Origin: Myxococcales bacterium | GTDB taxonomy: Bacteria > Myxococcota_A > Polyangia > Polyangiales > DASUME01 | Assembly: GCA_047601445.1 (NCBI GenBank) | Contig: JASGJH010000001.1 | Location: forward strand, 9,344,001 to 9,408,000 | Direction: 5' to 3' | DNA length: 64,000 nt | In this document: piece by piece, positions 28,123 to 36,257 of the stretch | Layout: the number at the start of each line of letters is the position of its first letter | Numbering within the stretch: the first letter of the stretch is position 1 | Notes under the pieces: model-generated | Told to the model about the DNA's origin: nothing | What the model saw: only the letters and a program-made list of their open reading frames with translations | The model's database searches: none | Program-made: the position numbers and the translations under genes

Positions 28123-28170
28123 GTCCTCGTCGTTCGTGCTCGTCGTCGTAGCCGTGCGCGTGCGCGTCCT
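28123..28170. repeat. Solo CGTnnn hexamer array related to the arms flanking the four-helix-bundle gene
   Basis: 28147-28166 CGTAGCCGTGCGCGTGCGCG matches 34816-34835 at 19/20; intergenic. Confidence 0.55.
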
Positions 28171-33495: not shown

Positions 33496-33930
33496 ATGCT
33501 CAAGCACTTCGACCACATTACGCTCGTCGTCCGCGACGTCGACGCCGCCAAACGGTTCTTCGGTCTGCTTGGCTTCGAGCAGGACAAATCCGTGGTGATC
33601 GCGGGCCCACGCTTCTCCGAATACATGGGCGTGGCAGGCATCCAGGCCGAGCACGTGACTCTCGCGCTTGCGGGCGCCTCGCCGCGCACCGAAGTGCAGC
33701 TCTTGAAATACCACCAACCGGACGCGCGCCCTGATCCCGAGGCGGGCAATCTCACCCGACTCGGCTTCAATCACGTCTGCTTTGCCGTGGACGACTTAGA
33801 CGCCGAGCTCGCGAAGCTCAGGGAGAAGGGCATCGAGCCGCGCAACGAAGTGCTCTATTTCCACGACCGCAAGCTGGTCTTCCTCTTGGGGCCCGAAGGA
33901 GTCACGGTGGAGTTGGCTCAGTGGAGCTGA
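33496..33930 (+). CDS. VOC (glyoxalase-like) family protein
   Basis: DHITLVVRD, GFNHVCFAVDD and GPEGVTVEL. Confidence 0.9.
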   Translation: MLKHFDHITLVVRDVDAAKRFFGLLGFEQDKSVVIAGPRFSEYMGVAGIQAEHVTLALAGASPRTEVQLLKYHQPDARPDPEAGNLTRLGFNHVCFAVDDLDAELAKLREKGIEPRNEVLYFHDRKLVFLLGPEGVTVELAQWS

Positions 33931-34008
33931 ACGCTTGCTGGACTAGGGGCTGTTCCTAATTCTCGGCGCTAATTTGTGCTGAAATCCGGATCGTGATCAA
34001 AGGTTGCT

Positions 34009-34760
34009 GTGCACCGCCACGCTCTGACCGACCAGCAATGGGAGCGCCTCCAGGGACAGCTTCCGAAGCGCCGCCCCGGACCAGCCTCCAAGCTCGGAGA
34101 CTGGTTGTTCATCGACGCCGTGCTCTACCGGGCAAAGACGGGTTGTCCGTGGCGTGATTTGCCCGAACGGTTCGGCCCCTGGAACTCGGTGTACAACCGA
34201 TTCTACAACTGGGCCGAGCGGGGGGCCTGGGAGAAGATTTTCAAGGCGCTGCAGCTGGACGTGGATGAAACGGGCTCGATCATTGATGCCTCTGTCGTTC
34301 GGGCGCACCAAGACGCTTCGGGCGGAAAAGGGGGATCCAATCCAATGCTTTGGGCCGCTCTCGAGGAGGTTTTTCAACGAAGATCCACGCCATTGTCGAT
34401 GCTAAGGCACGCCCACTGCACGTCGCGTTGACTCCTGGACAACAGCACGGCTCGACGATGGCGGAAGAGCTTCTGCCGCACGCTCGGGGGCGGGCGTTCA
34501 TTGCCGACACAGCTTACGACGCAGACCGCATTATCGAGGCAGTCCGCGCGCAGGGGATGAAACTCGTCATCTGCAACAACTCCACTCGCAAGTACAACCG
34601 ACGCCGGCTCGACCGAACCCTGTACCGCGAGCGCTACTTGGTGGAGGTTTTCTTCCACAATCTGAAGAGGTTCCGGGTTATCGCAACCCGGTACGAGAAG
34701 ACTGCGCAGAGCTACCTGGCTCTGCTGCAACTTGCGTGCGTCTGTCTCTGGCTTTCGTGA
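34009..34760 (+). CDS. tnp: IS5-family DDE transposase, two ORFs joined by a probable -1 frameshift
   Basis: OrfA: TGCPWRDLPERFGPW, IDASVVRAHQ. OrfB: GRSRGGFSTKIH, ADTAYD and the Y(2)R(3)E(6)K signature YRERYLVEVFFHNLK. Slippery AAAAGGGGG at 34326-34334. Confidence 0.93.
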
Positions 34761-34790
34761 CTGCGCCCCGCGCGTCAGCGTCAGCGTCTA

Positions 34791-34835
34791 CGTGTTCGTC
34801 GTCGTCCTCGTGAGACGTAGTCGTGCGCGTGCGCG
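34791..34835. repeat. Left arm of a 45-bp inverted repeat
   Basis: CGTGTTCGTCGTCGTCCTCGTGAGACGTAGTCGTGCGCGTGCGCG; 44/45 identical to the reverse complement of 35217-35261. Confidence 0.95.
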
Positions 34836-34876
34836 AAACGGCGCAACCAATCCGTTCATCGGCCGATATCGAAGAC

Positions 34877-35215
34877 ATGCTGGACTATGAGCGGCTCGAC
34901 GTTTACCAATGTGCCCTGCAGTTCGCGGCACTCTCCTTTCAGATTCTCGAGAAAATGCCTCGCGGTCATGGAGAACTTTCTGACCAGCTCAGACGCGCGA
35001 CGATTTCCATCCCTCTCAACATCGCAGAGGGCGCCGGCAAGACCACCGAGAGAGAACGCGCTCGCTACCACGCCATTGCGCGAGGTTCTGCCATGGAATG
35101 CGCTGCAATCGTTGACCTCCTCCGCCTTCAGGCTCTGGTCGACCTAGAAACGGCAACCGTAGCGAAAGCACTCTGTGTGCGCATCGTCTCCATGCTGAGC
35201 CGCATGTGCCGGTGA
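34877..35215 (+). CDS. Four-helix-bundle protein (23S rRNA IVS protein / bAvd-like family)
   Basis: MLDYERLDVYQ...DQLRRATISIPLNIAEGAG...ARGSAMEC family signature; 112 aa. Confidence 0.92.
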   Translation: MLDYERLDVYQCALQFAALSFQILEKMPRGHGELSDQLRRATISIPLNIAEGAGKTTERERARYHAIARGSAMECAAIVDLLRLQALVDLETATVAKALCVRIVSMLSRMCR

Positions 35216-35216
35216 C

Positions 35217-35261
35217 CGCGCACGCGCACGACTACGTCTCACGAGGACGAGGACGAACACG
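35217..35261. repeat. Right arm of a 45-bp inverted repeat
   Basis: One base separates it from the four-helix-bundle stop codon; reverse complement of 34791-34835 with one mismatch. Confidence 0.95.
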
Positions 35262-35339
35262 ATGACGAGTAGGAGTACGCTACACGCTCGTCGCCCCCCT
35301 CTCGCGCGCTGAACTCCCGAAAACAATTCGGAACAGCCC

Positions 35340-36257
35340 CTAGGGCACGGTCAGCACCGGGACCGGGCTGTGACGCACGATGCTGTGGGACACGCTACCC
35401 AACATGGCTCGCTCGACACCGCCTTTGCCGGTGGCTCCCACGCAAATCAGCTCTGCGTGGACGTCTTGAGCCCGCGCCAGCACGGCCTGCTTCGGATCCC
35501 CTTCCAATGCGTGGCAGCGCGTCCTCTCGAGCAGGTCGCTGGGGACCACACGACGCAACTCTGCCTCCAGAAACCTCATGTAGCGCGCGGCCAGTTCGGG
35601 GCTCGGCCACGGATCCGCAAAATTGGGCTGCAACTCCCCCCAGTACACACCCGGATGCACATGGATGAGCTCGATGCGTCCGCCGGTGCTGCGCACGACG
35701 TGCGCGGCGAACTCGAGCGCGAGGCGCGCCGGCTCGGAGAAGTCGTAGGCCACGGCGACCCGTTGATAGGTACGCTTTAGCCGCACTTCGATCTGCTGGT
35801 TCGCGACGCCCTCGGGCTGCCTCACCGTCATCACGGGCACCTCGGCCGTGCGCAGCACGCGCTCCGCCACGCTGCCGACGAACGTGCGGCCCAGCGCATT
35901 GCGACCGTGGGTGCCCATCACGACGAGGCTGATATCGGGTGTGCGCGTTCGCATCGCGATCACGCGCGCGGGGCTGCCTTCGACGAGCCGCGTGGTCGCC
36001 ACCGCACCGTGCCGCTCGGCCAGTCGCCGTTGTTGCTCCAGCAGCTCGCCGGCCCGCCGGAAAAACGAATCCAGCGCCTCCACCGTCATACCCATTCCCA
36101 TACCCATCGCGGGCTCCGGGAGGAGGGGAACCTGGAGCACGTGGATCAACTCGAGAGGCTGCTGAAATAGCTTCGCCAACTCACATGCGTGCAGCAGCGC
36201 GAGCTCCGAGCAGGACGAAAAGTCCTGGGGACACAGGATGCTTGCTTGCTTGGCCAT
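35340..36257 (-). CDS. Universal stress protein, tandem Usp domains
   Basis: Two domains with DFS, MGTHG...GSVAERV and VGATG...GSVS. Confidence 0.93.
   Translation of the reverse strand: MAKQASILCPQDFSSCSELALLHACELAKLFQQPLELIHVLQVPLLPEPAMGMGMGMTVEALDSFFRRAGELLEQQRRLAERHGAVATTRLVEGSPARVIAMRTRTPDISLVVMGTHGRNALGRTFVGSVAERVLRTAEVPVMTVRQPEGVANQQIEVRLKRTYQRVAVAYDFSEPARLALEFAAHVVRSTGGRIELIHVHPGVYWGELQPNFADPWPSPELAARYMRFLEAELRRVVPSDLLERTRCHALEGDPKQAVLARAQDVHAELICVGATGKGGVERAMLGSVSHSIVRHSPVPVLTVP

What the first reader, a model, noticed from the sequence alone, without database searches (positions are those of the whole stretch)
33943..35343. IS5 element carrying a four-helix-bundle gene enclosed in a long inverted repeat
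Seen in sequence: the IS ends (15/16 TIRs, TA duplication) enclose the transposase and a further 580 bp. That extra DNA holds a 112-aa four-helix-bundle ORF closely bracketed by 45-bp arms that are 44/45 complementary. A transcript could fold into a long stem with the whole gene in the loop. Established: IS427-group elements normally end close to the transposase stop. This protein family includes proteins encoded in 23S rRNA intervening sequences, which are excised from an RNase III stem, and the RNA-binding DGR accessory protein Avd. Inference: this is an IVS-like gene-in-a-hairpin cassette outside rRNA, either mobilised by the IS or itself a mobile, RNA-processed unit that could regulate transposition. 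It is the best candidate for an undescribed system in this window.
Basis: partly seen in the sequence, partly recalled or inferred. Interest (0 to 1): 0.85.

Follow-up and report, generated by a model that had tools for sequence, protein, structure and literature searches.

The report
Competence-timed gene cassette inside IS5 transposon
A small jumping gene carries, tucked into a hairpin, a gene of unknown function whose own promoter matches that of the host's DNA-uptake genes, which suggests this widespread mystery protein is made when the cell takes up foreign DNA.

Summary
In detail: an IS5 (IS427-type) element carries a four-helix-bundle gene (PF05635) between 44/45-complementary arms; a second copy lies elsewhere in the genome. 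The scan found this gene-in-hairpin cassette before on other DNA. New here: (1) Among 47 assessable close relatives of this IS, found by transposase alone, 11 carry the cassette right behind the transposase stop, in either orientation; 30 are empty; the tree needs at least 7 changes. The cassette is an independent module under purifying selection (dN/dS about 0.05-0.13) that repeatedly lands in IS ends and decays into REP-like hairpins. (2) Inside the loop, 8 nt before the ATG, sits GCAAC-N16-CGATA. The same motif precedes dprA (24 of 30 related genomes) and comF (46 of 55), and comEA, radA and Tad-pilus genes in this genome, but not comEC or comM; background is 1%. So the gene probably has its own sigma28-type, leaderless transcript, co-expressed with DNA-uptake genes. 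That transcript lacks the left arm, and the arms show no G-U bias, which weakens the RNase III/IVS reading. No expression or binding data; what the protein does during competence is inferred.

The parts
33943..35343 (+). Whole IS5 (IS427-type) element with passenger cassette, CTAG to CTAG
   Evidence: second copy at G000:C1:6835570-6836932 (-), 91% identical
33943..33961 (+). Left terminal inverted repeat with the CTAG target
34009..34431 (+). Transposase orfA (DUF4096, N-terminal half of NF033580)
34326..34334 (+). AAAAGGGGG, probable -1 frameshift site joining orfA and orfB
   Evidence: sequence; frameshifting is inferred from the two overlapping halves of NF033580
34350..34760 (+). Transposase orfB (DDE domain); ends W-L-S-stop, the same length as most empty alleles (W-L-N-stop)
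   Evidence: two positions differ from a residue shared by 47 of 52 and 50 of 51 relatives, so this copy may be ageing
34785..34835 (+). Left arm, built of degenerate hexamers (GTCCTC/GTGCGC type); member of a dispersed intergenic repeat family
34843..34868 (+). Promoter-like motif GCAAC-N16-CGATA (-35 at 34843-34847, -10 GCCGATA at 34862-34868), 8 nt before the ATG; shared with dprA, comF, comEA, radA and Tad/Flp genes
   Evidence: promoter activity is inferred, not measured
34877..35215 (+). Four-helix-bundle gene (PF05635 / TIGR02436), 112 aa, under purifying selection
35217..35267 (+). Right arm, complementary to the left arm
35268..35324 (+). Variable tail between right arm and right end
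   Evidence: tail plus end only 59% identical to the second copy
35325..35343 (+). Right terminal inverted repeat with the CTAG target; its CTAG is also the stop of the usp gene
33496..33930 (+). Left neighbour, VOC/glyoxalase gene (not part of the element)
35340..36254 (-). Right neighbour, universal stress protein gene (not part of the element)
28133..28166 (+). Gene-less single copy of the same arm family behind an MFS gene stop
   Evidence: (G000 9372133-9372166, E 0.012)

Best explanation
An ordinary IS5 has acquired a self-contained cassette: arm - promoter - four-helix-bundle gene - arm. SHOWN: the cassette is independent of the IS (solo copies, many IS lineages, both orientations, module swaps at the transposase stop), its gene is under purifying selection, the IS moves it as a unit, and old copies lose the gene and leave REP-like hairpins. 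SHOWN at sequence level: its promoter motif is the one in front of dprA and comF across the class, and of comEA, radA and the Tad/Flp pilus in this genome. INFERRED: a FliA/WhiG-like sigma factor reads this motif and makes a leaderless mRNA when the cell expresses DNA-uptake genes. INFERRED, weakest step: the pentameric protein acts on the arms at the DNA level while transforming single-stranded DNA is present, so that the cassette is taken in, or is not cured, during transformation. The arms can fold the gene out of a single strand, which shortens the non-matching stretch; a multi-copy IS offers homology on one side and a short end repeat on the other. The 3' end is the only place in this compact IS that tolerates an insert. 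The IS then amplifies the cassette by normal DDE transposition.
For: Repeated gain: of 52 inner-clade metagenome loci found with orfB alone, 10 have the gene and 1 a remnant directly behind the transposase, 4 have gene-less hairpins, 2 short inserts, 30 are empty, 5 are cut off; outer clade 0 of 28. Tree: 7 changes, carriers as one clade rejected, p-AU 2.6e-28. IS-borne genes are scattered on their own tree, 10 changes, with solo sisters in the same genome (L004/L029). Mosaic: window vs second copy dS 0.04-0.07 in the transposase but 1.03 in the cassette gene; window vs L062 0.58 and 0.38. dN/dS 0.04-0.13 in 13 computable pairs of 15. No constant duplication at the junctions. Other IS types carry it: IS630 (L191; about 48 copies in G009), a DDE_Tnp_4 element (L179-L192), IS200/605-like ends. 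Promoter: 32 genome sites at spacing 16 against 4-13 at spacings 10-25, 10 of them with an ATG 6-10 nt behind against 0-2; downstream genes dprA, comF, radA (spacing 17), comEA, Tad/Flp; dprA 24 of 30 genomes of the order, controls 1 and 0; comF 23 of 28 and 23 of 27 in other orders; background 53 of 5011 ORFs. A matrix trained only on 23 foreign dprA sites ranks the window's site 5th in the genome; its -10 consensus GGCCGATAAG matches the sigma28 -10 GCCGATAA of PMC8325347. FliA/WhiG-like sigma in 37 of 41 relatives; no flagellin match in this genome. Motif before the four-helix gene in 13 of 15 loci of the genus and 6 of 9 IS-borne metagenome loci, controls 0. No G-U bias in the arms. Decay series: 15 eroded hairpins with IS5-end and transposase remnants examined in this genome.
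Against: No transcript data: promoter, start site and sigma factor are predictions. The motif is not found before comEC (1 of 30) or comM (this genome), nor before dprA in other orders (4 of 30, control 3 of 30). Several motif sites precede secreted repeat proteins or unknown genes, so the regulon may be wider than, or other than, competence. The motif is rare before the same gene family elsewhere: 3 of 20 loci in other families of the order, 3 of 9 other Myxococcota, 3 of 38 other phyla; a competence link may be local. Gene-less hairpins also land at the same IS site (4 loci), so the site may draw hairpins whatever they carry. Nothing here shows what the protein binds. Natural transformation was not shown for this organism.
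Confidence: 0.55

Rival explanations
1. IVS-like RNA unit: read-through from the transposase makes a 45-bp stem, RNase III cuts it, and the released RNA or protein is the working part.
For: Stem is far more stable than shuffles (z -6.25). In Coxiella an S23p-bearing IVS with a 28-bp stem is cut by RNase III (PMC4990558, passages). A read-through transcript here would still form the stem, so cutting may happen as a side effect and could silence the gene outside competence.
Against: The conserved promoter lies downstream of the left arm. No G-U excess on the gene's strand (63 vs 85, p 0.08 in the other direction, 49 loci). Cassettes sit in both orientations. The gene is conserved, unlike the decaying Coxiella ORF. 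No Rfam match.
Confidence: 0.15
2. The motif marks another programme of the same sigma factor (DNA damage, surface contact or a developmental stage), not DNA uptake; the cassette uses it as a stress timer.
For: comEC and comM lack the motif; radA, a LuxR gene, a sigma54 activator and secreted repeat proteins have it. Sigma28-type factors control pili for other purposes (PMC8325347, passages).
Against: dprA, comF, a ComEA-type HhH protein and a Tad/Flp pilus together are the usual late-competence set (own knowledge); comF keeps the motif in 46 of 55 genomes across the class.
Confidence: 0.2
3. The protein is an accessory factor of the IS that regulates or helps transposition, for example by bringing the arms and so the ends together.
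For: In a second layout the arms lie just inside both terminal repeats and enclose transposase and gene (L011, L318, L343, L191, L186). The window's own IS clade has kept the cassette in 5 of 5 rows. Enrichment is large: 11 of 47 against 2 non-IS genes per 5011 or more ORFs in this genome.
Against: 30 of 47 close relatives are empty, some on very short branches from carriers. The cassette rides in unrelated transposase families and mostly stands alone. In the window the arms enclose the gene only, not the IS ends.
Confidence: 0.12
4. Capture route rather than function: an IS5-ended mini-element (end-arm-gene-arm-end) jumps into the CTAG that closes another IS5; the resulting end-to-end palindrome is deleted and leaves the stop codon. 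No transformation is needed.
For: In G320 a degenerate inverted copy of the right end lies between transposase stop and left arm (L345, L358). End-to-end insertions exist (L081). It explains both orientations and why 17 of 19 inserts of this layout have a stop within 4 codons of the last Trp.
Against: No such remnant in 12 other elements aligned (3 more were not parsed). No symmetric mini-element was seen among 17 end-bearing loci of G320 and G007. It does not explain the promoter or the solo cassettes without IS ends.
Confidence: 0.2

Closest known systems
IS5 family, IS427 group (NF033580)
   Same: Two-frame DDE transposase, short terminal repeats, CTAG target; 30 close relatives end with the transposase stop inside the right repeat.
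   Different: 583 bp of passenger DNA behind the stop, gained at least several times independently, in both orientations.
Passenger-carrying IS (tIS) and mobile insertion cassettes (MIC); names recalled, the review was not held
   Same: A non-transposition gene inside the IS ends, moved as a unit; transposase-less derivatives exist (G007 L041, L052).
   Different: The passenger is a hairpin-bounded cassette with its own host-regulon promoter, recurs across IS families, and also stands alone.
ORF-bearing 23S rRNA intervening sequences (Coxiella, Leptospira S23p; PMC4990558)
   Same: Same protein family in the loop of a stem; short repeats near the start.
   Different: Not in rRNA; own promoter inside the loop; gene conserved rather than decaying; RNase III cutting not shown.
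DGR accessory protein Avd (4DWL) and Xcc0516 (2GSC), BT0352 (2RLD)
   Same: Fold: TM 0.79, 0.93, 0.85; Xcc0516 is a pentamer (PMC4990558).
   Different: 10% identity to Avd; no reverse transcriptase near any cassette (two RT genes elsewhere).
REP/REPIN repeats with RAYT (recalled)
   Same: Intergenic palindromic family, single and paired copies, a gene between inverted copies.
   Different: The gene between the arms is not an HUH transposase; the one Y1 transposase of the genome is far from any arm; here hairpins look like decayed IS-borne cassettes.
Mobile-element genes that act on natural competence (ComI, RocRp, Prx, RokLS20; review PMC12378983, passages)
   Same: A small factor on a mobile element tied to competence; transformation can both cure and spread IS.
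   Different: Those are on plasmids, ICEs or prophages and were shown to inhibit; here an IS passenger appears to be a member of the regulon, direction of effect unknown.

Membership tests
IS5, IS427 group | DDE transposase of the NF033580 type in two frames | tested here: met
   116 and 139 bits against a cut-off of 110
IS5, IS427 group | Short terminal inverted repeats in a CTAG/TA target | tested here: met
   15 of 16 nt, CTAG at both ends in both genome copies; empty site not seen
IS5, IS427 group | Element ends at the transposase stop | tested here: not met
   583 bp extra; met in 30 of 47 assessable relatives
Passenger-carrying IS (tIS) | Gene unrelated to transposition inside the ends, moved with the element | tested here: met
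   two copies at unrelated sites with the cassette; complete relatives L062, L075, L093, L104, L345
Passenger-carrying IS (tIS) | Already catalogued in ISfinder | not testable with these tools
   ISfinder is not on hand; no plasmid record covers more than 9%
23S rRNA IVS with S23p ORF | Located in an rRNA gene | tested here: not met
   between a VOC and a usp gene; no Rfam match
23S rRNA IVS with S23p ORF | PF05635 ORF in the loop of complementary ends | tested here: met
23S rRNA IVS with S23p ORF | Excised from RNA by RNase III | not testable with these tools
   no raw RNA reads available; indirect signs are against
DGR (Avd) | Reverse transcriptase with template and variable repeats next to the gene | tested here: not met
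   RT genes at G000 1.21 and 4.49 Mb only
DGR (Avd) | Avd-like four-helix fold | tested here: met
   TM 0.79 to 4DWL, pLDDT 97
REP/RAYT | Dispersed intergenic palindromic repeat family | tested here: met
   22 loci, 0 in the reversed genome; 20 of 20 gene-less loci outside crude gene calls
REP/RAYT | HUH (Y1) transposase between the repeats | tested here: not met
Competence regulon | Same promoter motif as dprA and comF | tested here: met
   24 of 30; 23 of 28; 23 of 27; not at dprA in other orders, 4 of 30
Competence regulon | Same motif as comEA, radA and a pilus | tested here: met
   this genome only; not examined in relatives
Competence regulon | Same motif as comEC and comM | tested here: not met
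   comEC 1 of 30; comEC and comM none in this genome
Competence regulon | Co-induction with DNA uptake | not testable with these tools
   needs RNA or reporter data

The most novel reading that the evidence does not exclude
The four-helix-bundle cassette is a selfish element of natural transformation: it has adopted the promoter of an undescribed sigma28-type DNA-uptake regulon of myxobacteria, makes its pentamer when single-stranded DNA enters, and uses its arms to be integrated or to escape curing. Insertion sequences of several families pick it up because it protects or spreads them too, and decayed copies are a source of REP-like repeats.
Probability: 0.3. Interest if true: 0.9.

Novelty: new variant of a known kind. 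Interest (0 to 1): 0.74.

Why it matters
The S23p/four-helix-bundle family is very large and has no known function outside Avd. A shared promoter with dprA and comF gives a first condition under which to look for its protein and phenotype. The same motif outlines a candidate competence regulon and sigma factor for myxobacteria, which I did not find in my searches. Filled and empty IS alleles on short branches give natural pairs to test how the cassette is gained, and the decay series links these cassettes to unexplained intergenic hairpin repeats. If the protein shields or spreads IS during transformation, it adds a new player to the conflict between mobile elements and chromosome curing.

Tried and rejected
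One-off insertion: rejected. Single ancestral passenger lineage: rejected (p-AU 2.6e-28). Constant target duplication at the cassette junctions: not found. RNA wobble bias in the arms: not found. Rfam: no match up to E 1. Sequencing runs: no RNA holder listed; 20 rows with small shares only; four runs laid gave contigs of relatives only and say nothing on expression. Complex of the protein with DprA: no answer, neither support nor evidence against. RT or Y1 transposase partner near the cassette: none. Plasmids and phages: 8 short transposase matches at DNA level, 9 cyanobacterial four-helix genes, no phage match. Shuffled control for the motif was weak (4 per 3 Mb), so the spacing scan and gene-level controls were used. 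The neighbour scan picked the longest frame on each side and missed several real genes (many rows without a family), so it gives examples, not a rate. L046 was labelled solo in the tree but proved IS-associated. L004's transposase remnant was read by eye only. Literature: 10 searches gave no paper on four-helix-bundle genes in IS, in hairpins outside rRNA, or in competence regulons, nor on this motif; the library lacks most subscription papers, the IS review PMC7190074 was not held, and supplements were not searched.
Full report
Observation. The element is as described: terminal repeats 15 of 16 in CTAG, a two-frame IS5 transposase, 583 bp extra DNA with a 112-aa PF05635 gene between arms that are 44 of 45 complementary. 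The extra DNA folds far better than shuffles (z -6.25). The model (pLDDT 97) matches Xcc0516 (TM 0.93), BT0352 (0.85) and Avd (0.79). The nearest named relative of the protein (88%, L141) is titled a Myxococcales bacterium, so the host is probably a myxobacterium.

The genome. A second copy of the whole element lies at G000:C1:6835570-6836932. Its transposase is nearly the same (dS 0.04-0.07) but its cassette gene is not (dS 1.03), while metagenome locus L062 shows the reverse (0.58 and 0.38): the two halves are swapped as modules near the transposase stop. dN/dS of the gene is 0.04-0.13 in 13 computable pairs of 15. Two more family members without IS5 lie at 3.64 and 6.70 Mb in other repeat arms. 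The window's arm occurs at 22 loci, 0 in the reversed genome; the 20 gene-less loci are outside crude gene calls. A second family, related to L008 (an IS5 with cassette in G005), has left many eroded hairpins; in the 15 printed, most keep both arms, several an IS-end or transposase-end remnant, and the gene is lost or cut down.

The cassette is general. Inverted arms scored 30 or more in 71 of 99 loci, against 12 of 99 for mismatched pairs and 11 of 99 for direct orientation; 8 loci were dropped for short flanks, 24 come from one record, and one scored on a run of N. The scan had noted this layout on other DNA and transposase-less IS4, ISL3, IS200 and IS66 versions. These notes are leads, not support.

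Repeated gain by IS5. A metagenome search with orfB alone gave 80 loci (best 80 of 524). In the inner clade (52 loci) 10 have the gene directly behind the transposase (4 same strand, 6 opposite), 1 has arms with a remnant, 4 have gene-less hairpins, 2 short inserts, 30 are empty and 5 are cut off; the outer 28 are all empty. The DNA tree needs 7 changes and rejects one clade of carriers (p-AU 2.6e-28). The IS-borne genes are scattered over their own tree (10 changes, 66 rows, few columns). In 401 genomes of the phylum, 5 others hold a close transposase; 2 of the 5 carry the gene. Junctions show no constant duplication. 17 of 19 inserts give a stop within 4 codons of the last Trp, 11 at exactly the length of most empty alleles, so only inserts that spare the transposase survive. 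Other families carry the cassette too: IS630 (L191; 97 end matches, about 48 copies, in G009, typed from its N-terminus by eye), a DDE_Tnp_4 element, and a roughly 560-bp element with IS200/605-like ends in 24 loci of one record. In a second layout the arms lie just inside both ends and enclose transposase and gene (L011, L318, L343, L191, L186).

The promoter. Between left arm and ATG lies GCAAC-N16-CGATA, 8 nt before the ATG. It precedes the gene in 13 of 15 loci of the genus, 6 of 9 IS-borne metagenome loci, but only 3 of 20 in other families of the order, 3 of 9 other Myxococcota and 3 of 38 other phyla; controls 0. In the genome it is spacing-specific: 32 sites at 16 against 4-13 at other spacings, 10 with an ATG 6-10 nt behind against 0-2. 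Genes behind it include dprA, comF, radA, a ComEA-type HhH gene, and Tad/Flp pilus genes, and also a LuxR gene, a sigma54 activator and secreted repeat proteins. With one mismatch allowed it lies before dprA in 24 of 30 genomes of the order (controls 1, 0), comF in 23 of 28 (0, 0) and in 23 of 27 genomes of other orders (1, 0); these sets are the 30 best-scoring loci of each search, and kin are not independent. Background is 53 of 5011 ORFs. Against: comEC 1 of 30, comM none in this genome, dprA in other orders 4 of 30 with control 3 of 30. A matrix from 23 dprA sites of other genomes ranks the window's site 5th of 65 above threshold. Its -10 consensus equals the sigma28 -10 GCCGATAA, and a sigma28-type factor drives pilus genes in Rubrobacter (PMC8325347, passages). 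The genome has one FliA/WhiG-like sigma, below the family cut-off, found in 37 of 41 relatives, and no flagellin match. That this sigma reads the motif is inference.

What follows. The gene's own transcript would begin at about the ATG and lack the left arm, so the gene-in-loop RNA can form only on read-through. Arm mismatches are 63 G-U to 85 A-C on the gene's strand in 49 loci, which gives no sign of selection on a sense RNA stem and fits a DNA-level role. In Coxiella the IVS is cut by RNase III and its ORF decays (PMC4990558, passages); here the ORF is conserved. A review describes transformation as curing and also spreading IS, and lists mobile-element factors that act on competence (PMC12378983, passages). 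My best reading is a cassette timed to DNA uptake, which gains or keeps its place through transformation, lands in the one tolerant spot of IS5, and is amplified by transposition (0.55 overall; structure and repeated gain about 0.9, shared promoter about 0.85, competence about 0.7, the protein's action about 0.35). Rivals: another programme of the same sigma (0.2), capture by an IS-ended mini-element (0.2, one lineage supports it), RNA excision (0.15), transposition accessory (0.12). These overlap in part.

Known and new. It works like a passenger-carrying IS and is a member of IS5; it is not an IVS, DGR or RAYT system by the tests above. Ten paper searches (listings only, apart from the three papers named) found no description of the IS link or the motif; ISfinder, subscription papers and supplements were not seen. 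The scan's notes hold no match to this DNA or to the promoter link. Verdict: real, new variant of a known kind, interest 0.74.

Noticed in passing
G000:C1:375621, 981187, 1067777, 1081141, 6295389, 8813766, 8819367; sigma at 1855399-1856109: Candidate sigma28-type regulon of myxobacteria (GCAAC-N16/17-CGATA) covering dprA, comF, radA, comEA and Tad/Flp pilus genes, many apparently leaderless; worth its own study.
   Followed up: partly
G000:C1 at about 1.92, 3.47, 3.49, 4.08, 4.20, 5.07, 5.34, 5.48, 5.83, 5.99, 7.05, 7.30, 7.48, 7.60, 8.33, 8.34, 9.31 Mb: A second hairpin repeat family that looks like decayed copies of an L008-type IS5 with cassette.
   Followed up: partly
G009, e.g. L051:1-420 and L315:1500-1748: IS630-type element with 97 end matches (about 48 copies) that has arm, promoter and four-helix gene at one end; the middle is not assembled.
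   Followed up: partly
L143-L190 (record OZ242383.1), L154, L157, L159: About 560-bp four-helix cassette with IS200/605-like terminal hairpins, 96-100% identical ORFs among 19 copies compared, some in tandem; probably the element of note e1-358726.
   Followed up: partly
L010, L017, L019, L021, L023, L025, L027 (G013, G016, G017, G021, G036, G038, G039): A second four-helix subfamily, 8-16 matches in several genomes, often as convergent pairs, with long hexamer runs and a small hairpin before the start; lacks the promoter motif.
   Followed up: no
L070, L085, L091, L097: Gene-less hairpins of 230-320 nt inserted at the same IS5 3' site; unrelated to the window's arms.
   Followed up: partly
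L178-L181, L185, L186, L192; L191: Elements in Chlamydiae-titled and Verrucomicrobia-titled records in which repeat arms just inside the ends enclose a transposase and a four-helix gene.
   Followed up: partly
L001:1498-1797: Four-helix gene in heptamer arms wedged between cas6 and cas4.
   Followed up: no
G000:C1:9490870-9491690: A distant single-frame IS5 without cassette; the surrounding DNA looks unlike the rest and the assembly is listed at 5.4% contamination.
   Followed up: no
window 28133-28166: Gene-less copy of the arm family behind an MFS gene, near the start of a sulfatase-like gene.
   Followed up: partly
L072:835-1730; L007; L344: Nested insertions: an IS481-like element in an IS5 right end, an IS4 in a cassette arm, and head-to-head IS5 copies.
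   Followed up: no
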